A stretch of DNA of 64,000 bases from contig JBHGNT010000145.1 of the NCBI GenBank assembly GCA_043228905.1, positions 1 to 64,000 of the forward strand, read 5' to 3'. The stretch comes from Azolla caroliniana. Its lineage: Eukaryota > Plantae > Polypodiophyta. Below the pieces are notes generated by a model. That model did not search any database, was not told where the DNA came from, and worked only from the letters and a program-made list of their open reading frames with translations. Position 1 is the first letter of the stretch. The number at the start of each line of letters is the position of its first letter. The translations under genes were made by a program, and so were the position numbers. This document shows positions 50,700-64,000 of this stretch, piece by piece.

Positions 50700-50704
50700 C
50701 TCTC
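50700..50704 (+). other. 5' target-site duplication CTCTC
   Basis: The satellite motif CAAGGGCTC-CTCTC-AACTCACTCC is split. CTCTC lies immediately before TGTCA (50705) and again right after TGACA (56492-56496). Confidence 0.95.
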
Positions 50705-50775
50705 TGTCATAACTAGACTCGAACCCATAACCTTTTGTTACACGGGTCGAGACTTTACCATTAGGTTATGAGTTG
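50705..50775 (-). promoter_or_regulatory. tRNA-like Pol III type-2 promoter module (A box + B box), antisense, in 5' LTR U3
   Basis: Minus strand reads CAACTCA-TAACCTAATGG-TAAAGTCTCGACCCGTGTAACAAAAGGTTATG-GGTTCGAGTCT-AGTTATGACA. The A-box-like TAACCTAATGG (50768-50758) and B box GGTTCGAGTC (50725-50716) sit at standard tRNA spacing. Cloverleaf stems are degenerate, so this is not a functional tRNA. Confidence 0.55.
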
Positions 50776-50826
50776 TAATTTGAAGGATATTATTTTCATT
50801 TAGGTTTTATTAGGAAATTGATGTAT

Positions 50827-50876
50827 ATTCCAGATTTCTCTGGAACATTCTAGAAACTTCAGGAGTATTCCTGAAG
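50827..50876. promoter_or_regulatory. Heat-shock element array (10 in-phase alternating nGAAn/nTTCn pentamers)
   Basis: aTTCc aGAtt tcTCt gGAAc aTTCt aGAAa cTTCa gGAgt aTTCc tGAAg: 7 perfect and 3 one-mismatch units, ending 4 bp before the TATA box. Confidence 0.75.
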
Positions 50877-50880
50877 ACAC

Positions 50881-50887
50881 TATAAAA
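50881..50887 (+). promoter_or_regulatory. TATA box of LTR promoter
   Basis: CTATAAAAGG is a canonical TATAWAWR, 33 bp upstream of the predicted start site at 50914. The 3' LTR copy is at 56175. Confidence 0.75.
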
Positions 50888-50913
50888 GGAGGCGCAAGGC
50901 ATTAGTTCGAACC

Positions 50914-50925
50914 AAATCGGTTCAA
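50914..50925 (+). other. Predicted transcript 5' end / self-primer AAATCGGTTCAA
   Basis: Exact reverse complement of 51166-51177, and located at transcription-start distance from the TATA box. Confidence 0.7.
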
Positions 50926-50994
50926 CGCCAGTCTTAAGCCTTCTAACTACTGTTGTATATCTTCCGTCATATAATACATATATCTTTCGCATCA

Positions 50995-50998
<4 letters not shown>

Positions 50999-51034
<36 letters not shown>
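50999..51034 (+). repeat. (TC)18 microsatellite in 5' LTR
   Basis: Read directly from the sequence. Confidence 0.95.
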
Positions 51035-51037
<3 letters not shown>

Positions 51038-51064
51038 CCTTCTCTCAAAGTTCGACACCTCTCA

Positions 51065-51131
51065 TAGTACTAATCCTTCTCTGTCTTAGTACTATTCCCC
51101 AACAATAGTACTAATCCTTCTTTTAGTACTA
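51065..51131. repeat. Four TAGTACTA palindromes in degenerate 18-22 bp repeats at the 3' end of the LTR
   Basis: TAGTACTA at 51065, 51087, 51106 and 51124, mostly followed by A(T)TCC(TTCT). The same arrangement is present in the 3' LTR. Confidence 0.85.
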
Positions 51132-51165
51132 ATTCCTTCTCTGCCTGAATAGAGTTCCTGACAGT

Positions 51166-51177
51166 TTGAACCGATTT
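51166..51177 (+). other. Non-tRNA primer-binding site (self-priming type) TTGAACCGATTT
   Basis: Begins 2 nt (GT) after the LTR-terminal CA, lacks the TGG expected for tRNA-CCA priming, and is a 12/12 complement to 50914-50925. Confidence 0.75.
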
Positions 51178-51252
51178 TCTCCTACTAGTCTCCCTCTTCC
51201 TTCTGTCTCTCTCCTTTCCTACTAGTCTCTTATTTCCCTTTTCCTTCATCCC

Positions 51253-52422
51253 ATGGCCACCGTTAGCGCTGAAGAGTATCAATCCGTTTTCTCGGAATTT
51301 CAATGCTTGAAAGAGAAGTTTCATGCTTTGGAACAAGAAAATCAACGCTTGTTGGGGGATCTTCAGCAAATTTCCTTAGAAAAGCAGCAAACGCAACAAC
51401 AGCATGGGGAACTTGCGTTACGCGTGCAACAACTCGAAGCAACCATCGTAGCAATGCAACAACAAGGGCACGGAGCACAAGGGATTCATAAAGAACCCAA
51501 GATTGGCCTTCCCACGAAGTTCGATGGAACGCGATCGCAGTTTAGAGGGTTTCTTAACCAGGTACGGTTAGTTATTCAAATGCATCCATCCCGATATCCC
51601 ACCGATGCATCACGAGTGGGTTTAGTAGGCACGTTGTTAAATGGCTCAGCATTAGCATGGTTCGCTCCGCTACTAGAAAAGGAATCTCCAGTACTAAATA
51701 ATTTTGAAGAATTCATAAGTGAGTTTAAAGCATGTTTTGGAGATACTGACAGCATAAGGACTGCAATCAACAAAATCCGGCGATTACGCCAAGGTGACCG
51801 TCCAGCCTCCGCATATGCTGCAGATTTCCGCCTACTCGCCGCCGATATCCCCTGGGATGATCAAGCATTGATGGAGCAGTTCCGCTATGGTCTACGCAAC
51901 GATGTCAAGGATTTACTCTTGACTTTCCCTGAAGAGCCAAAATCATTAACAGAAGCAATCAGTCGAGCGGTCAGATGTGACAACCGCCTCTTCGAGCGAC
52001 GTTCGGAACGACAATTTCAGATGCCGAGGGCAAGATCCGAGCCTACCTATGCCTCAATGGTAGCGAAACCTTTTCAAAGGGAGTCACATAATGCGCCTCC
52101 AGTAAGTACTCCAACTCCAATGGAAATTGACACTACACGTCGTCGTGGGCCGCTATCGGAGGAGGAAAAGCAACGACGCCGAACAAACCGATTATGCCTT
52201 TATTGCGGTGGACCAGGGCATATCGCGATAAACTGTCCCCATAGACCAAGAAGGCAGGTAAACCAAGTCATTGTTAGTTCTGACTATACTAAACCCGAGT
52301 CTATGTCAGTAGGAATCTCTGATAATCCTCATAGTCATAATAGTCCTAATAGTACTAATAGTCCGAATCTCGCAAACAAATTTGATGTCCTTAGCCAATT
52401 AGAAGAAGAGTTAAACGACTAA
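51253..52422 (+). CDS. gag: Gag polyprotein (389 aa; coiled-coil N-terminus, retrotransposon capsid domain of the PEG10/RTL1/sushi type, CCHC zinc knuckle)
   Basis: ATG in good context (CCCATGG). Motifs include PTKFDGTRSQFRGFL, LRQG..ASAYAADFR, FRYGLRNDVKD, PTPMEID and CLYCGGPGHIAINC (CX2CX4HX4C, 52195-52236). Confidence 0.95.
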   Translation: MATVSAEEYQSVFSEFQCLKEKFHALEQENQRLLGDLQQISLEKQQTQQQHGELALRVQQLEATIVAMQQQGHGAQGIHKEPKIGLPTKFDGTRSQFRGFLNQVRLVIQMHPSRYPTDASRVGLVGTLLNGSALAWFAPLLEKESPVLNNFEEFISEFKACFGDTDSIRTAINKIRRLRQGDRPASAYAADFRLLAADIPWDDQALMEQFRYGLRNDVKDLLLTFPEEPKSLTEAISRAVRCDNRLFERRSERQFQMPRARSEPTYASMVAKPFQRESHNAPPVSTPTPMEIDTTRRRGPLSEEEKQRRRTNRLCLYCGGPGHIAINCPHRPRRQVNQVIVSSDYTKPESMSVGISDNPHSHNSPNSTNSPNLANKFDVLSQLEEELND

Positions 52423-55400: not shown

Positions 55401-56006
55401 TGCGCGGAGGATCGTTTGGAGCGGTTACGCAAGATACAAGCGGATTTATCTACTCAACTCCAGCAAGCTCAACAATCACACAAGGACTACGCAGATCGTC
55501 ATCGACTTCCATCCAGTTTTAACATTGGAGATCGGGTGTGGCTGCTACGACGACACATCAAGACTACTCGCCCATGTGAGAAGTTGGATTATCGACGATT
55601 AGGTCCTTTCCGTATTATCGGGAAGATTAATGATGTCGCTTTTCGTCTCGAGCTACCTCCGCAACTTCGGATACACCCGGTGTTTCATAGTTCTCTCCTC
55701 GAACCCTATCACGAGAGCACTATCCCAGGACGTACTATACAACCTCCACCTCCTATCGAGCTCGAAGATGGACCTGAGTATGAGGTCGCTGCCATCCTCG
55801 ATTCCAAGATTGTTCGCAACAAGCTCTACTATCTAGTCGATTGGCTAGGATATAGTCCCAGCGAGCGTACTTGGGAACCGATCGAGAATGTGACCAATGC
55901 TCGTGCTCTTCTAGAAGACTTCCATCGACGATATCCCGAGAAACCGGGTCCTCAATCCAAAACGACTCGTGAAACTCGTCGTTTTAAAGGGGGGATAGTG
56001 TCATAA
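52395..56006 (+). CDS. pol: Pol polyprotein: aspartic protease, reverse transcriptase, RNase H, integrase, chromodomain; expressed as Gag-Pol by -1 frameshift
   Basis: The ORF track gives 52449-56006 from a TTG, but the frame is open from 52395 and overlaps the gag end in the -1 frame. Motifs: ALLDSGA (D at 52578), MPFGLTNAPAVFQ, YLDD (53574-53585), EADASDFALG, NYEIHDKELLAIV, H..GHFG..C..C, DFITDLP, SDRGPQF, QTDGQAERTNQ, GPF and EYEV..ILD..YLVDWLGY..TWEP. Confidence 0.96.
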   Translation, partial: PIRRRVKRLSPAKIGAVWLDSPRSVQPISGSIPSKQVSDVFVVQVAVSTKRTPPVHTLALLDSGANSCFMDRNFARAHQISLRKLPCPASVVVIDGRPIASGNIIEESEPVNIVLDNLTCVVSFNIISIPEHPIVLGLPWFELHDPDIDWRTREIRLRQTQGSTQKVATISLRQLREEGRKEEMFLFAISVQPSSTTKEESTVQLPEKYRQYADVFDKVQANTLPHHRPYDCAIDLQPGKEPPWGPIYNLSPTELEVLRAYIEENLENGFIRHSKSPAGAPIFFVKKKDGSLRLVVDYRGLNKVTVRNRYALPLISSLLERINGARFFTKIDLRGAYNLVRIRPGDEWKTAFRTRYGHFEYTVMPFGLTNAPAVFQHMANDIFRDLLDDFLIIYLDDLLVYSKTQEEHDSHVLLVLKRLREHGLYAKLEKCSFGCNQVEFLGYVISSEGISMDPAKVKTVIEWHTPRSVRDVQCFLGFANFYRKFIQNYSKIVLPLTQLTRKGQSFIWSKETDMAFESLKKAFTSAPILGHVDPEKPFIIEADASDFALGSILSQQGNDEKLHPVAFHSRKFDAAEINYEIHDKELLAIVDSFMQWRHFLEGSPHQVTVFSDHKNLAYFQDARVLNRRQARWAHFLTRFDFKITYRPGKHQGKADALSRRSYLTPRPGEPAFDNQKQVILGPARLQAAQIFDMPVDSDITNTIREDLKTDAFAQAILAQIDPSRASCSQSQSPGTDYRQFKYCDGLLFFKELLYVPNGSCRLQVVQNCHDTYTAGHFGSTKTLDLVQRSFWWPRMRQFVEDFVRTCDTCCRAKMPRHHPYGLLEPLPIPSKPWQSIALDFITDLPVSKGFSAILTVVDRYTKMAHFLPCTKEISSEDTAEIVMREVCRHHGLPDNIISDRGPQFVSKFWKHLFKMLKVTCNLSSGYHPQTDGQAERTNQTLEQYLRCFLNYHQNDWADILPFAEFAYNNAIHASTKVTPFYAYTGYHPRWCVLETPEVSTNPCAEDRLERLRKIQADLSTQLQQAQQSHKDYADRHRLPSSFNIGDRVWLLRRHIKTTRPCEKLDYRRLGPFRIIGKINDVAFRLELPPQLRIHPVFHSSLLEPYHESTIPGRTIQPPPPIELEDGPEYEVAAILDSKIVRNKLYYLVDWLGYSPSERTWEPIENVTNARALLEDFHRRYPEKPGPQSKTTRETRRFKGGIVS
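52410..52461 (+). promoter_or_regulatory. -1 programmed ribosomal frameshift signal: G_UUA_AAC heptamer plus stem-loop/pseudoknot
   Basis: G TTA AAC at 52410-52416 in gag phase, then a 6-nt spacer. An 11-bp stem forms between GTCCAGCCAAA (52423-52433) and TTTGGTTGGAC (52444-52454; one G-U). Loop TAGG(A)GC can pair with GCCCTA (52456-52461). Confidence 0.8.
55776..55925 (+). other. Integrase C-terminal chromodomain (group I-like, aromatic cage residues retained)
   Basis: EYEVAAILDSKIVRNKLYYLVDWLGYSPSERTWEPIENVTNARALLEDFH matches the HP1-type chromodomain pattern (Y..; W.GY; TWEP). Confidence 0.9.
55986..55998 (+). other. Polypurine tract AAAGGGGGGATAG
   Basis: Purine run immediately 5' of the 3' LTR start TG (55999). 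Confidence 0.9.
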
Positions 56007-56288
56007 CTAGACTCGAACCCATAACCTTTTCTTACACGGGTCGAGACTTTACCATTAGGTTATGAGTTGTAATTTGAAGGATATTATTTTCATTTAGGTT
56101 TTATTAGGAAATTGATGTATATTCCAGATTTCTCTGGAACATTCTAGAAACTTCAGGAGTATTCCTGAAGACACTATAAAAGGAGGCGCAAGGCATTAGT
56201 TCGAACCAAATCGGTTCAACGCCAGTCTTAAGCCTTCTAACTACTGTTGTATATCTTCCGTCATATAATACATATATCTTTCGCATCA

Positions 56289-56358
<70 letters not shown>

Positions 56359-56491
56359 ACTCATTCCTTCTCTCAAAGTTCGACACCTCTCATAGTACTA
56401 ATCCTTCTCTGTCTTAGTACTATTCCCCAACAATAGTACTAATCCTTCTTTTAGTACTAATTCCTTCTCTGCCTGAATAGAGTTCCTGACA
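55999..56491 (+). repeat. 3' LTR (493 bp)
   Basis: TGTCATAACTAG...GTTCCTGACA. Carries second copies of the A/B-box module (55999-56069), HSE (56121-56170) and TATA (56175). Confidence 0.97.
56293..56362 (+). repeat. (TC)31(ACTC)2 microsatellite in 3' LTR
   Basis: Read directly; 34 bp longer than the 5' LTR copy, which accounts for the whole LTR length difference. Confidence 0.93.
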
Positions 56492-56496
56492 CTCTC
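56492..56496 (+). other. 3' target-site duplication CTCTC
   Basis: Follows TGACA and continues in satellite phase as AACTCACTCCTCAAATTTG. Confidence 0.95.
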
Positions 56497-59400
56497 AACT
56501 CACTCCTCAAATTTGCTAATTTCGTCATTTCTCTCGACCTGAGTTTCAAAATCTTGATTTTTTAACTCCATATCATAGCTAGCGTTTGAACACAAAAATC
56601 CGATATCACACTCGCCAGGTATGAACATTTTAATTTACTCAAGCCCTCCTCTGAACTCCCTCCTCATGGTTGCTAATTTCGTCGTGTCTCTCGACCTGAG
56701 TTTTATAATCTTGATTTTTTAATTCCATTTCATAGCTAGCGTTGTTAGCTTCGATTCGCATGTTTGAACACAAAAATCCGATATCACACGAGCCAGGTAT
56801 GAACATTTTAATTTACTCAAGGCCTCCTCTAAACTCCCTCCTCATGTTTGCTAATTTCGTCATGTCTCTCGACCTGAGTTTCAAAATCTTGATTTTTTAA
56901 TTCCATATCATAGCTAGCGTGGTTAGCTTCGATTCGCATGATTGAATACAAAAATCCGATATCACACGAGCTAGGTATGAACATTTTAATTTACTCAAGG
57001 CCTCCTGTGAACTCCCTCCTCATGTTTGCTAATTTGGTCATGTCTCTCGACTTGAGTTTCAAAATCTTGATTTTTTTAATTCCATATCATACCTAGCGTT
57101 GTTAGCTTCCATTCACATGTTTGTACACAAAAATCCGATATCACACTCGCTAGGTATGAACATTTTAATGTACTCAAGGGCTCCTCTCAACTCACTCCTC
57201 AAATTTGGTAATTTCGTCATTTCTCTCGACCTGAGTTTCAAAATCTTGAGTTTTTTAACTCCATATCATAGCTAGCGTTGTTAGCTTCGATTCGCATGTT
57301 TGAACACAAAAATCCGATATCACACTCGCCAGGTATGAACATTTTAATTTACTCAAGGCCTCCTCTGAACTCCCTCCTCATGGTTGCTAATTTCGTCGTG
57401 TCTCTCGACCTGAGTTTTATAATGTTGATTTTTTAATCCCATTTCATAGCTAGCGTTGTTAGCTTCGATTCGCATGTTTGAACACAAAAATCCGATATCA
57501 CACTCGCTAGGTATGAACCTTTTAATTTACTCAAGGCCTCCTCTGAACTCCCTCCTCATGTTTGCTAATTTCGTCATGTCTCTCGACCTGAGTTTCAAAA
57601 TCTTGATTTTTTAATTCCATATTATCGATAGCGTTGTTAGATTCGATTCGCATGTTTGAACACAAAAATCCGATATCACACGAGCCAGGTATGAACATTT
57701 TAATTTACTCAAGGCCTCCTTTGAACTCCCTCCTCATGTTTGCTAATTTCGTCATGTCTCTCGACCTGAGTTTCAAAATCTTGATTTTTTAATTCCATAT
57801 CATACCTAACGGTGTTAGCTTCGATTCGCGTGTTTGTACACAAAAATCCGATATCACACTCGCTAGGTATGAACATTTTAATTTACTCAAGGGCTCCTCT
57901 GAACTCCCTCCTCATGTTTGCTAATTTCGTCGTGTCTCTCGACCTGAGTTTCAAAATCTTGATTTTTTAAAAACATATCATAGCTAGCGTTGTTAGCTTC
58001 GATTCGCATGTTAGAACACAAAAATCCGATATCACCCGAGCTAGGTATGAACATTTTAATTTACTCAAGGCCTCTTGTGAACTCCCTCCTCATGGTTGCT
58101 AATTTCGTCGTGTCTCTCGACCTGAGTTTCATAATCTTGATTTTTTAATTCCATTTCATAGCTAGCGTTGTTAGCTTCGATTCGCATGTTTGAACACAAA
58201 AATCCGATATCACACGAGCCAGATATGAACATTTTAATTTACCTACTAGCTCTTCCCAACTCAGTCCTGAAATTTGGTAATTTCGTCATGTCTCTCGACC
58301 TGAGTTTCAAAATCTTGATTTTTTAATTCCATATCATAGCTAGCGTTGCTATCTTCGATTCGCATGTTTGAACACAAAAATCCAATATCACACGAGCTAG
58401 GTATGAACATTTTAATTTACTCAAGGCCTCCTCTGAACTCCCTCCTTATGTTTGCTAATTTCGTCATGTCTCTCGACCTGAGTTTCAAAATCTTGATTTT
58501 TTAATTCCATATTATCGATTGCGTTGTTAGCTTCGATTCGCATGTTTGAACACAAAAATCCGATATCACACTCGCTAGGTATGAACATTTTAATTTACTC
58601 AAGGGCTCCTCTCAACTCACTCCTCAAATTTGCTAATTTCGTCATTTCTCTCGACCTGAGTTTCAAAATCTTGATTTTTTAATTCCATATCATAGCTAGC
58701 GTTGTTAGCTTCGATTCGCATGTTGGAACACAAAAATCCGATATCACACTCGCTAGGTATGAACATTTTAATTTACTCAAGGCCTCCTGTGAACTCCCTC
58801 CTCATGTTTGCTAATGTCGTCATGTCTCTCGACTTGAGTTTCAAAATCTTGATTTTTTAATTTCATATCATAGCTAACGTTGTTAACTTCGATTCGTATG
58901 TTTGTACACAAAAATCCGATATCACACTCGCTAGGTATGAACATTTTAATTTACTCAAGGGCTCCTCTGAACTCCCTCCTCATGTTTGCTAATTTCGTCA
59001 TGTCTCTCGACCTGAGTTACAAAATCTTGATTTTTTAAAAACATATCATAGCTAGCGTTGTTAGCTTCGATTCGCATGTTAGAACACAAAAATCCGATAT
59101 CACCCGAGCTAGGTATGAACATTTTAATTTACTCAAGGCCTCTTGTGAACTCCCTCCTCATGGTTGCTAATTTCGTCGTGTCTCTCGACCTGAGTTTCAT
59201 AATCTTGATTTTTTAATTCCATTTCATAGCTAGCGTTGTTAGCTTCGATTCGCATGTTTGAACACAAAAATCCGATATCACACGAGCCAGATATGAACAT
59301 TTTAATTTACCTACTAGCTCTTCCCAACTCAGTCCTGAAATTTGGTAATTTCGTCATGTCTCTCCACCTGAGTTTCAAAATCTTGATCTTTTAATTCCAT

Positions 59401-62400
59401 ATCATAGCTAGCGTTGCTATCTTCGATTCGCATGTTTGAACACAAAAATCCAATATCACACGAGCTAGGTATGAACATTTTAATTTACTCAAGGCCTCCT
59501 CTGAACTCCCTCCTTATGTTTGCTAATTTCGTCATGTCTCTCGACCTGAGTTTCAAAATCTTGATTTTTTAATTCCATATTATCGATTGCGTTGTTAGCT
59601 TCGATTCGCATGTTTGAACACAAAAATCCGATATCACACTCGCTAGGTATGAACATTTTAATTTACTCAAGGGCTCCTCTCAACTCACTCCTCAAATTTG
59701 CTAATTTCGTCATTTCTCTCGACCTGAGTTTCAAAATCTTGATTTTTTAATTCCATATCATAGCTAGCGTTGTTAGCTTCGATTCGCATGTTGGAACACA
59801 AAAATCCGATATCACACTCGCTAGGTATGAACATTTTAATTTACTCAAGGCCTCCTGTGAACTCCCTCCTCATGTTTGCTAATGTCGTCATGTCTCTCGA
59901 CTTGAGTTTCAAAATCTTGATTTTTTAATTTCATATCATAGCTAACGTTGTTAACTTCGATTCGTATGTTTGTACACAAAAATCCGATATCACACTCGCT
60001 AGGTATGAACATTTTAATTTACTCAAGGGCTCCTCTCAACTCACTCCTCAAATTTGCTAATTTCGTCATTTCTCTCGACCTGAGTTTCAAAATCTTGATT
60101 TTTTAACTCCATATCATAGCTAGCGTTGTTAGCTTCGATTCCCATGTTTGAACACAAAAATCCGATATCACACTCGCTAGGTATGAACATTTTAATTTAC
60201 TCAAGACCTCCTCTGAACTCCCTCCTCATGTTTGCTAATTTCGTCCCTGAGTTTCAAAATCTTGATTTTTTAATTCCATATCATACCTAGCGTTGTTAGC
60301 TTCGATTCGCCTGTTTGAACACAAAAATCCGATATCACACGAGCCAGGTATGAACATTTTAATTTACTCAAGGCCTCCTTTGAACTCCCTCCTCATGTTT
60401 GCTAATTTCGTCATGTCTCTCGACCTGAGTTTCAAAATCTTGATTTTTTAATTCCATATTATCGATAGCGTTGTTAGCTTCGATTCGCATGTTTGAACAC
60501 AAAAATCCGATATCACACACGCTAGGTATGAACATTTTAATTTACTCAAGGGCTCCTCTGAACTCCCTCCTCATGTTTGCTAATTTCGTCATGTCTCTCG
60601 ACCTGAGTTTCAAAATTTTGATTTTTTAACTCCATATCATAGCTAACGTTGTTAGCTTCGATTCGCATGTTTGAATACAAAAATCCGATATCACACTCGC
60701 TAGGTATGAACACTTTAATTTACTCAAGACCTCCTCTCAACTCCCTCCTCATGTTTGCTATTTGCGTCCTTGAGTTTCAAAATCTTGATTTTTTAATTCC
60801 ATATCATAGCTAGGGTTGTTAGCTTCGATTCGCATGTTTGAACACAAAAATCCGATATCACACGAGCTAGGTATGAACATTTTAATTTACTCAAGGCCTC
60901 TTGTGAACTCCCTCCTCATGTTTGCTAATTTGGTCATGTCTCTCGACTTGAGTTTAAAAATCTTGATTTTTTTAATTCCATATCATACCTAGCGTTGTTA
61001 GCTTCAATTCGCATGTTTGTACACAAAAATCCGATATCACACTCGCTAGGTATGAACATTTTAATTTACTCAAGGGCTCCTCTCAACTCACTCCTCAAAT
61101 TTGCTAATTTCGTCATTTCTCTCGACCTGAGTTTCAAAATCTTGATTTTTTAACTCCATATCATAGCTAGCGTTGTTAGCTTCGATTCGCATGTTTGAAC
61201 ACAAAAATCCGATATCACACTCGCCAGGTATGAACATTTTAATTTACTCAAGGCCTCCTCTGAACTCCCTCCTCATGTTTGCTAATGTCGTCATGTCTCT
61301 CGACTTGAGTTTCAAAATCTTGATTTTTTAATTTCATATCATAGCTAACGTTGTTAACTTCGATTCGTATGTTTGTACACAAAAATCCGATATGACACTC
61401 GCTAGGTATGAACATTTTAATTTACTCAAGGGCTCCTCTCAACTCACTCCTCAAATTTGCTAATTTCGTCATTTCTCTCGACCTGAGTTTCAAAATCTTG
61501 ATTTTTTAACTCCATATCATAGCTAGCGTTGTTAGCTTCGATTCCCATGTTTGAACACAAAAATCCGATATCACACTCGCTAGGTATGAACATTTTAATT
61601 TACTCAAGACCTCCTCTGAACTCCCTCCTCATGTTTGCTAATTTCGTCCCTGAGTTTCAAAATCTTGATTTTTTAATTCCATATCATACCTAGCGTTGTT
61701 AGCTTCGATTCGCCTGTTTGAACACAAAAATCCGATATCACACGAGCCAGGTATGAACATTTTAATTTACTCAAGGCCTCCTTTGAACTCCCTCCTCATG
61801 TTTGCTAATTTCGTCATGTCTCTCGACCTGAGTTTCAAAATCTTGATTTTTTAATTCCATATTATCGATAGCGTTGTTAGCTTCGATTCGCATGTTTGAA
61901 CACAAAAATTCGATATCACACACGCTAGGTATGAACATTTTAATTTACTCAAGGGCTCCTCTGAACTCCCTCCTCATGTTTGCTAATTTCGTCATGTCTC
62001 TCGACCTGAGTTTCAAAATTTTGATTTTTTAACTCCATATCATAGCTAACGTTGTTAGCTTCGATTCGCATGTTTGAATACAAAAATCCGATATCACACT
62101 CGCTAGGTATGAACACTTTAATTTACTCAAGACCTCCTCTCAACTCCCTCCTCATGGTTGCTATTTTCGTCGTGTCTCTCGACCTGAGTTTCAAAATCTT
62201 GATTTTTTAATTCCATATCATAGCTAGGGTTGTTAGCTTCGATTCGCATGTTTGAACACAAAAATCCGATATCACACGAGCTAGGTATGAACATTTTAAT
62301 TTACTCAAGGCCTCTTGTGAACTCCCTCCTCATGTTTGCTAATTTGGTCATGTCTCTCGACTTGAGTTTAAAAATCTTGATTTTTTTAATTCCATATCAT

Positions 62401-64000
62401 ACCTAGCGTTGTTAGCTTCAATTCGAATGTTTGTACACAAAAATCCGATATCACACTCGCTAGGTATGAACATTTTAATTTACTCAAGGGCTCCTCTCAA
62501 CTCACTCCTCAAATTTGCTAATTTCGTCATTTCTCTCGACCTGAGTTTCAAAATCTTGATTTTTTAACTCCATATCATAGCTAGCGTTGTTAGCTTCGAT
62601 TCGCATGTTTGAACACAAAAATCCGATATCACACTCGCCAGGTATGAACATTTTAATTTACTCAAGGCCTCCTCTGAACTCCCTCCTCATGGTTGCTAAT
62701 TTCGTCGTGTCTCTCGACCTGAGTTTTATAATCTTGATTTTTTAATTCCATTTCATAGCTAGCGTTGTTAGCTTCGATTCACATGTTTGAACACAAAAAT
62801 CCGATATCACACGAGCCAGGTATGAACATATTAATTTACTCAAGGCCTCCTCTAAACTCCCTCCTCATGTTTGCTAATTTCGTCATGTCTCTCGACCTGA
62901 GTTTCAAAATCTTGATTTTTTAATTCCATATCACAGCTAGCGTGGTTAGCTTCGATTCGCATGATTGAATACAAAAATCCGATATCACACGAGCTAGGTA
63001 TGAACATTTTAATTTACTCAAGGCCTCCTGTGAACTCCCTCCTCATGTTTGCTAATTTGGTCATGTCTCTCGACTTGAGTTTCAAAATCTTGATTTTTTT
63101 AATTCCATATCATACCTAGCGTTGTTAGCTTCAATTCGCATGTTTGTACACAAAAATCCGATATCACACTCGGTAGGTATGAACATTTTAATGTACTCAA
63201 GGGCTCCTCTCAACTCACTCCTCAAATTTGGTAATTTCGTCATTTCTCTCGACCTGAGTTTCAAAATCTTGATTTTTTAACTCCATATCATAGCTAGCGT
63301 TGTTAGCTTCGATTCGCATGTTTGAACACAAAAATCCGATATCACACTCGCCAGGTATGAACATTTTAATTTACTCAAGGCCTCCTCTGAACTCCCTCCT
63401 CATGGTTGCTAATTTCGTCGTGTCTCTCGACCTGAGTTTTATAATCTTGATTTTTTAATCCCATTTCATGGCTAGCGTTGTTAGCTTCGATTCGCATGTT
63501 TGAACACAAAAATCCGATATCACACTCGCTAGGTATGAACCTTTTAATTTACTCAAGGCCTCCTCTGAACTCCCTCCTCATGTTTGCTAATTTCGTCATG
63601 TCTCTCGACCTGAGTTTCAAAATCTTGATTTTTTAATTCCATATTATCAATAGCGTTGTTAGCTTCGATTCGCATGTTTGAACACAAAAATCCGATATCA
63701 CACGAGCCAGGTATGAACATTTTAATTTACTCAAGGCCTCCTTTGAACTCCCTCCTCATGTTTGCTAATTTCGTCATGTCTCTCGACCTGAGTTTTAAAA
63801 TCTTGATTTTTTAATTCCATATCATACCTAACGTTGTTAGCTTCGATTCGCGTGTCTGTACACAAAAATCCGATATCACACTCGCTAGGTATGAACATTT
63901 TAATTTACTCAAGGGCTCCTCTGAACTCCCTCCTCATGTTTGCTAATTTCGTCATGTCTCTCGACCTGAGTTTCAAAATCTTGATTTTTTAAACACATAT
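56492..64000. repeat. 178-bp tandem satellite array, right arm (about 42 monomers), same orientation, more diverged
   Basis: Same monomer resumes in register after the TSD. Contains a local 6-mer duplication (AAAACATATC at about 57969/59037, 1068 bp) and an 8-mer duplication (GTTTAAAAA 1413 bp apart at about 60952/62365). Confidence 0.97.

What the first reader, a model, noticed from the sequence alone, without database searches (positions are those of the whole stretch)
50914..51177. tRNA-independent self-priming: the PBS is complementary to the element's own predicted 5' end
Seen: after the 5' LTR comes GT-TTGAACCGATTT with no TGG. Its exact 12-nt complement AAATCGGTTCAA starts 33 bp downstream of the TATA box. 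Extension from that primer would leave a 2-nt GT beyond the terminal CA, matching integrase 3'-processing geometry. Established: S. pombe Tf1 primes minus-strand synthesis with the first 11 nt of its own mRNA, released by RNase H, and this has been proposed for the Tf1/sushi group. Inference: the same mechanism operates here, which predicts a TSS at about 50914. This is notable if the host is a plant, and notable alongside a tRNA-like module in the same LTR.
Basis: partly seen in the sequence, partly recalled or inferred. Interest (0 to 1): 0.78.

Follow-up and report, generated by a model that had tools for sequence, protein, structure and literature searches.

The report
Self-priming retrotransposon family in a fern
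A young, intact jumping gene in a fern genome has no tRNA primer site and instead carries a 12-base site that matches the predicted start of its own RNA, so it likely primes its own copying as yeast Tf1 does; this trick was already predicted for moss relatives, and here it is backed by matched changes across sister families and by rearranged copies that likely record the priming step.

Summary
Observation confirmed. The window holds an intact Ty3/gypsy chromovirus (LTRs 50705-51163, 55999-56491) in a 178-bp satellite. After CA-GT lies a 12-mer whose exact complement starts 33 bp after the TATA box (5 of 20,000 shuffles match this). Sister families (gag 62-77% identical) change both sides together and keep the geometry. 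Among 94 copies the PBS is invariant to its 12th base and hypervariable right after it, which likely marks the primer's 5' end at 50914. I also found integrated 'inverted R-U5' copies, joined exactly through the primer/PBS match; 10 of 30 mappable breakpoints fall at RNA nt 11-18 and none at 1-10, as expected if the primer is cut off near nt 12/13. No tRNA 3' end fits (incomplete tRNA set). No RNA start was measured. The mechanism is known (Tf1) and already predicted for plant Tcn1 elements (Neumann 2019); this scan noted the same layout in moss genomes before. New here: the host is a fern, where a 2010 survey found no such elements, and the genomic scars, which my searches did not find described.

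The parts
50700..50704 (+). 5-bp target-site duplication, left copy (CTCTC)
   Evidence: identical to 56492-56496
50705..51163 (+). 5' LTR, 459 bp, TG...CA
   Evidence: aligns to the 3' LTR with one substitution plus a length change in and beside the CT microsatellite
50716..50763 (-). tRNA-like module in U3: B-box-like 50716-50725 and A-box-like 50753-50763, antisense; role untested
   Evidence: B-box-like motif in 7 of 8 representatives of families A, A', B, C (box labels recalled); no tRNA call
50881..50888 (+). TATA box
   Evidence: sequence; 32-33 bp before the primer in 8 of 8 own-genome representatives
50914..50925 (+). predicted self-primer = first 12 nt of the RNA; predicted transcription start at 50914
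   Evidence: exact complement of 51166-51177; 5' end inferred from the PBS hotspot
50926..50933 (+). conserved CRCCAGT after the primer; predicted to bulge C13 and pair with the GT spacer and the U5 end; predicted cut at about nt 12/13
   Evidence: same short extension predicted in 8 of 8 representatives; breakpoint pile-up
51164..51165 (+). GT spacer between LTR and PBS (predicted 2-nt integrase overhang)
   Evidence: kept in families A, A', B, C and in metagenome locus L358
51166..51177 (+). primer-binding site, complementary to the element's own 5' end
51178..51182 (+). hypervariable junction right after the PBS
   Evidence: 30 variants among 59 copies of one UTR type, 17 among 35 of the other
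51253..52422 (+). gag ORF (capsid, CCHC knuckle), 389 aa
52395..56006 (+). pol ORF in the -1 frame: PR-RT-RH-IN-chromodomain with aromatic cage
55987..55998 (+). polypurine tract
   Evidence: sequence
55999..56491 (+). 3' LTR, 493 bp
56492..56496 (+). target-site duplication, right copy

Best explanation
This is an intact Tf1/sushi-group chromovirus in a fern genome whose primer-binding site is the exact complement of a 12-mer 33 bp after its TATA box, and it likely starts reverse transcription from that 12-mer, the predicted 5' end of its own RNA, instead of from a tRNA. Shown: the anatomy, the match, the double-sided changes and the scars. Inferred steps: (1) Pol II starts at A50914. (2) nt 1-12 pair with the PBS 250 nt downstream; C13 bulges and nt 14-20 pair weakly with the GT spacer and U5 end. 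(3) RT's RNase H cuts near nt 12/13, as shown for Tf1 at 11/12. (4) The primer is extended by AC and U5, so the cDNA end carries GT beyond CA for integrase to trim. (5) The plus strand copies the primer and stops at its 5' end, where added bases and a mismatched second strand transfer make the hotspot; the PBS is thus rewritten from the LTR each cycle. (6) Now and then a growing minus strand jumps onto an unjumped strong-stop DNA, copies U5 and the primer, then pairs with the 12-mer of plus-strand LTR DNA and copies U3; integrase inserts the product as an 'inverted R-U5' element.
For: Match and chance test. Four primer types in this genome (A 12 nt, A' 12, B 11, C 12; gag 62-77% identical to A) differ at primer positions 3, 5, 7, 8 or in length, each with a perfectly complementary PBS, TATA+32/33 and CA-GT; exact junction counts 266, 158 and 211 for A, B, C with 0 reversed-pattern controls. 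Two distant metagenome relatives (RT 53-56%) have quite different 12-mers in the same geometry. Hotspot: 6-nt haplotype diversity 0.93 versus at most 0.34 in 561 other windows outside the microsatellite, 57 copies; variation starts at +15 after the LTR in A (66 of 67 T at +14) and C (24 of 24), but at +14 in B with its 11-nt primer. Inverted copies: 35 exact junctions for A/A', 6 of 30 C and 5 of 29 B junctions sampled; 10 of 30 mappable breakpoints at nt 11-18, none at 1-10 (binomial p 2e-7 to 2e-6); 9 of 30 long stretches show an exact 5-bp duplication, 4 more 4 of 5. Best tRNA 3'-end match 2 nt. Two unrelated gag families in the same genome have ordinary TGG sites. RT-RH groups with fungal and vertebrate elements, apart from seed-plant and Closterium ones (SH-aLRT 99). 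Literature.
Against: No RNA start, cleavage or cDNA end was measured; the runs found were contigs. Of 20 gag-selected loci with both sites, only 9 pair perfectly; 11 have one or two mismatches or wobbles, many in copies with stops. The A-to-A' change sits in a CpG on both sides and could be decay. The extra helices are short, so the Tf1 three-helix 'pretzel' is only weakly matched. The tRNA set was incomplete (43 unique genes, 13 anticodons) and holds an 11-nt internal match. Search patterns fixed the first 11-13 PBS bases, so only the bases beyond test invariance; B's +14 variation partly follows subfamilies and C's hotspot is weak. The nt 11-18 window was chosen after seeing the data. Of 24 metagenome loci with repeats only 2 reached 12 nt, 6 reached 8-9, 16 had 7 or less (many truncated); in L327 the helix was not favoured (mean pairing 0.04).
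Confidence: 0.92

Rival explanations
1. A tRNA fragment cut in the T-loop primes the element; the LTR 12-mer is a B-box-like leftover that happens to match.
For: Primers A, A' and B resemble a T-arm, and 50919-50929 reads like a B-box (consensus recalled). A tRNA-Gln(ttg) in a trnL-trnQ-trnH cluster matches 11 nt of PBS A and a tRNA-Thr(ggt) 11 nt of PBS A'. Half-tRNA priming exists in plant copia lineages.
Against: The invariant stretch runs two bases past the tRNA-Gln match and ends exactly where the self-match ends. Family C's best tRNA match is 8 nt in another register. Each family would need its own tRNA while its LTR 12-mer changed in step. Breakpoints stop short of nt 1-10. The tRNA-Gln gene looks organellar (inference from its repeated cluster).
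Confidence: 0.04
2. Priming is by the element's own RNA but not from a cut 5' end: a separate small RNA from the LTR (or from the antisense U3 module) acts as primer, or the start lies upstream and two cuts free the primer.
For: Some copies extend the PBS by 1-3 bases matching U3 just upstream of the 12-mer (L041, L047, L053, L128, L146), so starts up to 3 nt upstream likely occur. The A/B-box module is conserved.
Against: TATA+32/33 spacing in 8 of 8 representatives; the hotspot sits at the predicted cap site; the U3 module is antisense and shares only about 7 pairs with the PBS (read from the sequence).
Confidence: 0.03
3. For the inverted copies only: they arose after insertion, by genomic inversion between the two 12-nt inverted repeats plus deletion, and say nothing about priming.
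For: A target duplication survives an internal rearrangement, so it does not separate the models. A clean inversion also puts one breakpoint at nt 13.
Against: None of the junctions read in detail shows the reciprocal join of a clean inversion; where mapped, the internal side resumes from just after the LTR to several kb inside while the R side loses a few bases; several carry further small internal inversions; they occur in copies 99% like the window's element and make up 5 of 29 and 6 of 30 sampled junctions in B and C, much for a 12-bp repeat.
Confidence: 0.2

Closest known systems
Tf1/Tf2 of Schizosaccharomyces pombe (PMC7175516, PMC11042837, PMC5341516, bioRxiv 10.1101/2022.12.06.519325; passages seen)
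   Same: Chromovirus; PBS complementary to the RNA's 5' end, not to tRNA; primer of 11-12 nt. Tf1's RNase H cuts at 11/12; its cDNA keeps PBS DNA at the 3' end and gets non-templated bases, which fits the hotspot here.
   Different: Fern host; separate gag and pol in -1 overlap (Tf1 has one ORF); a GT spacer (Tf1's PBS appears to abut the LTR, from a passage in PMC11042837); flanking helices are short; shown by experiment for Tf1, inferred here.
Plant Tcn1 clade of REXdb (Neumann et al. 2019, PMC6317226; passages and the supplement row for Tcn1 seen)
   Same: 5-bp duplication, about 5.8 kb (range 5.5-9.4), overlapping gag and pol, caged chromodomain, no tRNA PBS; self-priming predicted for 83% of 1500 elements by a 10-bp match 0-5 bp after the LTR, which this element meets.
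   Different: Reported only from moss and club-moss; the main text has no mention of ferns. The prediction rested on complementarity alone.
Tcn1-like survey of Novikova et al. 2010 (PMC2864245; passages and section 7 seen)
   Same: Fungal-type chromoviruses in non-seed plants.
   Different: PCR in 26 ferns and horsetails, Salvinia natans among them, found no Tcn1-like clone and judged them likely absent; no PBS or self-primer was seen in SM-Tcn1.
TAR copia lineage (Houba, Osr-1; PMC6317226 passages)
   Same: Plant LTR elements predicted to self-prime.
   Different: Ty1/copia, no chromodomain, seed plants.

Membership tests
Ty3/gypsy chromovirus | LTRs with TG...CA, target duplication, PPT, gag then PR-RT-RH-IN, C-terminal chromodomain | tested here: met
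Tf1/sushi group | RT-RH groups with fungal and vertebrate chromoviruses, not seed-plant ones | tested here: met
   quick ML tree of 38 rows, SH-aLRT 99; identity 47-58% to fungal/vertebrate, 43-49% to seed-plant and Closterium rows. No Tf1, sushi, Galadriel, Reina or CRM reference was in the tree.
Tf1/sushi group | PBS complementary to the LTR and not to a tRNA 3' end | tested here: met
   (tRNA set incomplete)
Tf1/sushi group | The complementary segment is the 5' end of the RNA | tested here: inconclusive
   indirect only: TATA spacing and hotspot; no raw RNA reads
Tf1/sushi group | Three-helix 'pretzel' around the primer helix | tested here: inconclusive
   a 2+3 bp extension towards U5 is predicted in 8 of 8; no helix with the sequence 3' of the PBS in the window's fold
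Tf1/sushi group | RNase H releases the primer | not testable with these tools
   breakpoints at nt 11-18 fit a cut near 12/13 but do not name the enzyme
Plant Tcn1 clade | Chromodomain with aromatic cage (Y24, W45, Y48) | tested here: met
   Y, W and Y present at the expected places in residues 1128-1167; residue numbers from PMC3350952
Plant Tcn1 clade | 5-bp duplication, 5.5-9.4 kb, overlapping gag and pol | tested here: met
   5787 bp, -1 overlap of 28 nt
Plant Tcn1 clade | One clade with Cryptococcus Tcn1 and the moss and Selaginella elements | not testable with these tools
   no named reference among the hits; the nearest rows are unnamed; nearest named row is a basidiomycete
Plant Tcn1 clade | Host is a moss or club-moss (described range, not a defining trait) | tested here: not met
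   plastid matK of this assembly: the best named hits are all ferns

The most novel reading that the evidence does not exclude
A fern carries a large, recently active radiation of fungal-type self-priming chromoviruses where they were thought absent, and self-priming leaves its own fossil record: a hypervariable seam at the primer's cap end and a frequent, undescribed class of integrated 'inverted R-U5' elements that preserve the primer-bearing strong-stop DNA. Together they let one map the RNA start and the cut site of self-primed elements from genome sequence alone, in any host.
Probability: 0.6. Interest if true: 0.6.

Novelty: new member of a known kind. Interest (0 to 1): 0.42.

Why it matters
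Self-priming is proven only in fission yeast; for plants it was a prediction from a short match. Here the genome itself gives independent support: changes on both sides, a scar at the primer's 5' end and breakpoints at its 3' end. The same tests can be run on moss Tcn1, TAR copia and vertebrate sushi elements without bench work. A fern host widens the range of a lineage whose patchy spread has been read as horizontal transfer from fungi. The mechanism itself is not new.

Tried and rejected
Expression: no RNA holder listed; four runs laid were contigs and show no starts. Host by rbcL was not decisive (93.9% to a moss, 93.3% to an angiosperm representative); my first guess of a moss was overturned by matK. 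Idea that the local hairpin across the U3/R border (50905-50926) shields the 3' copy of the primer: dropped, as families B and C lack it. Rfam and ARAGORN found no RNA family in the LTR. A T-arm pattern search mostly returned LTR copies (313 matches; 5 non-LTR-looking places fetched, 3 held tRNAs). The fuzzy pairing tally misplaced the primer in 7 of 20 rows; I used instead. Cluster look-up gave no organism names. The careful tree did not finish; the quick one is cited. Primary Tf1 papers and the Esnault and Levin review were not held, so Tf1 details come from secondary passages. Rows dropped: 4 of 39 inverted junctions with unreliable alignments and 5 that run through the primer were left out of the pile-up test; L272 was a normal copy; one stretch (L120) was cut short. 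Supplements: only the Tcn1 rows of 5 files of PMC6317226 were seen; the per-element table was not among them and fern genome supplements were not searched, so a prior listing of Tcn1 in ferns cannot be excluded.

Full report
Setting. The window is almost all a 178-bp satellite (323 copies in register) with one insertion. The insertion has LTRs at 50705-51163 and 55999-56491 that differ by one substitution and a length change at the CT microsatellite, a CTCTC duplication, a polypurine tract, a 389-aa gag and a 1203-aa pol frame in -1 overlap with PR, RT, RH, IN and a chromodomain. It is a young, intact Ty3/gypsy chromovirus.

Observation. All coordinates hold. A perfect complement of 12 nt or more arose in 5 of 20,000 shuffles of the LTR. 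The predicted RNA from 50914 folds with the 12-bp helix closing a 250-nt loop (z -4.9).

Host and lineage. G000 has 523 Mb in 1503 contigs. Its rbcL did not place it. Its plastid matK did: the best named hits are all ferns, led by tree ferns and Marsileaceae at 49-52%. The family sits on the large contigs in hundreds of copies, so it is no contaminant. In a quick tree of RT-RH (38 rows) the element falls with basidiomycete, ascomycete, fish and frog elements, apart from seed-plant and Closterium rows (SH-aLRT 99). No named Tcn1 or Galadriel reference was available, so Tf1/sushi membership is supported and the narrower Tcn1 label is likely but untested.

Changes on both sides. A gag profile search gave 150 places, of which 30 were fetched. 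20 of 30 had both sites; 9 of these pair perfectly over 11-15 nt and 11 have one or two mismatches or wobbles. They define four primer types. Against family A, A' changes position 5, B changes position 3 and is one base shorter, C changes positions 3, 7 and 8; each PBS follows. All 8 representatives keep TATA+32/33, CA-GT and a CRCCAGT after the primer, with mean pairing probability 0.90-0.95. Exact junction patterns occur 266 (A), 158 (B) and 211 (C) times, controls 0. Two other gag families in the sample carry a normal TGG site. Among 79 metagenome loci, 24 had a repeat pair; 2 show a 12-nt self-match of quite different sequence after TATA+33/34, 6 show 8-9 nt, 16 show 7 or less, many being truncated.

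The scar at the primer's 5' end. From 100 family-A loci I got 97 distinct sites; 94 are normal. All 94 share the 14 bases after the LTR (the first 11 were fixed by the pattern for 70 loci, and 30 loci were picked by similarity). The next few bases come in 30 forms among 59 copies of one UTR type and 17 among 35 of the other. Six-base haplotype diversity is 0.93 there and at most 0.34 in 561 other windows outside the microsatellite. The variation starts at +15 in A and C and at +14 in B, tracking primer length. The plus strand stops at the primer's 5' end, and Tf1 RT adds non-templated bases to cDNA ends (PMC11042837, passage). So the seam likely marks A50914 as the RNA's first base. A few copies extend the PBS by 1-3 bases that match U3, which suggests occasional starts just upstream.

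The scar at the primer's 3' end. Many junctions continue after the PBS into the reverse complement of U3 up to the LTR's first base: 6 of 30 in C, 5 of 29 in B, 1 of 91 in A, and 35 exact matches for A/A' genome-wide. Read in the element's sense they are U3, primer, AC, reversed U5-R, then internal sequence from a variable point on to a normal 3' LTR. Of 30 long stretches with such a copy, 9 have an exact 5-bp duplication and 4 match 4 of 5; in the rest the far end was outside the stretch or did not match. Of 39 distinct junctions, 5 run through the primer into U3, 4 aligned unreliably, and 30 were mapped: 10 start at RNA nt 11-18, none at 1-10, 20 spread over nt 25-208 (p 2e-7 to 2e-6, window chosen after the fact). 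A strong-stop DNA made on an RNA that has lost nt 1-12 ends at nt 13; with a tRNA primer it would end at nt 1. I read these as integrated reverse-transcription errors (about 0.8); inversion after insertion remains possible.

tRNA rival. 103 tRNA genes (43 unique, 13 anticodons) from 35 loci were tested. The best 3'-end match is 2 nt. The best internal match is 11 nt, to the T-arm of a tRNA-Gln(ttg); it stops two bases short of the invariant border, and family C reaches only 8 nt. The set is incomplete.

What is known. Tf1's first 11 bases pair with the PBS and RNase H cuts at 11/12 (PMC7175516, passage); a three-helix structure is required (bioRxiv 2022.12.06.519325, passage). Neumann et al. 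[quoted passage not shown] Novikova et al. 2010 found no Tcn1-like clones in 26 ferns and horsetails (section 7). Searches for Tcn1 with fern terms listed no paper placing it in ferns (passages). Searches for fold-back or inverted-LTR products of self-priming and for a tRNA-like LTR module listed nothing on point; I saw listings and abstract starts only, and most subscription papers are not held. This scan had noted the same layout in moss genomes.

Verdict. The mechanism is a known kind and was predicted for this group. The fern host and the two genomic scars lift it above routine. Interest 0.42.

Noticed in passing
window 50716-50763 (minus strand), and the same place in L036, L050, L133, L145, L161, L163: An antisense A-box/B-box-like pair at the U3 end is kept across families whose gag is 62-77% identical; it may recruit Pol III factors (boundary or antisense RNA). 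Not a full tRNA.
   Followed up: partly
L228, L249, L227, L131: Copies reading LTR-GT-PBS-reversed U3, as if plus-strand strong-stop DNA folded back on its own primer sequence; target duplications not established.
   Followed up: partly
L077, L183, L095: LTRs followed by GT and PBS and then by another LTR, host DNA or inverted internal sequence, like the PBS-retaining and tandem insertions described for Tf1.
   Followed up: no
L224, L236, L237: The same inverted copy, nested at the same base of another family member, occurs at three places on two contigs; it may have been carried along by its host element or duplicated.
   Followed up: no
window 1-50704 and 56492-64000: A 178-bp satellite array with strong strand skew; only the window's own locus among 160 loci of these families held the satellite, so the families do not seem to target it.
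   Followed up: partly
L062, L065 versus L001: Family A has two different 5' UTR types behind identical LTRs and PBS (59 and 35 copies), switching at the PBS seam.
   Followed up: no
L191, L198, L199, L208, L209, L210: Tandem tRNA gene arrays in the host: Lys(ttt)/Asn(gtt) at about 368-bp spacing, Ile(tat) and Arg(tct) clusters.
   Followed up: no
window 52395-52422: gag and pol overlap by 28 nt in the -1 frame, with a GTTAAAC just before the gag stop as a possible slip site.
   Followed up: no
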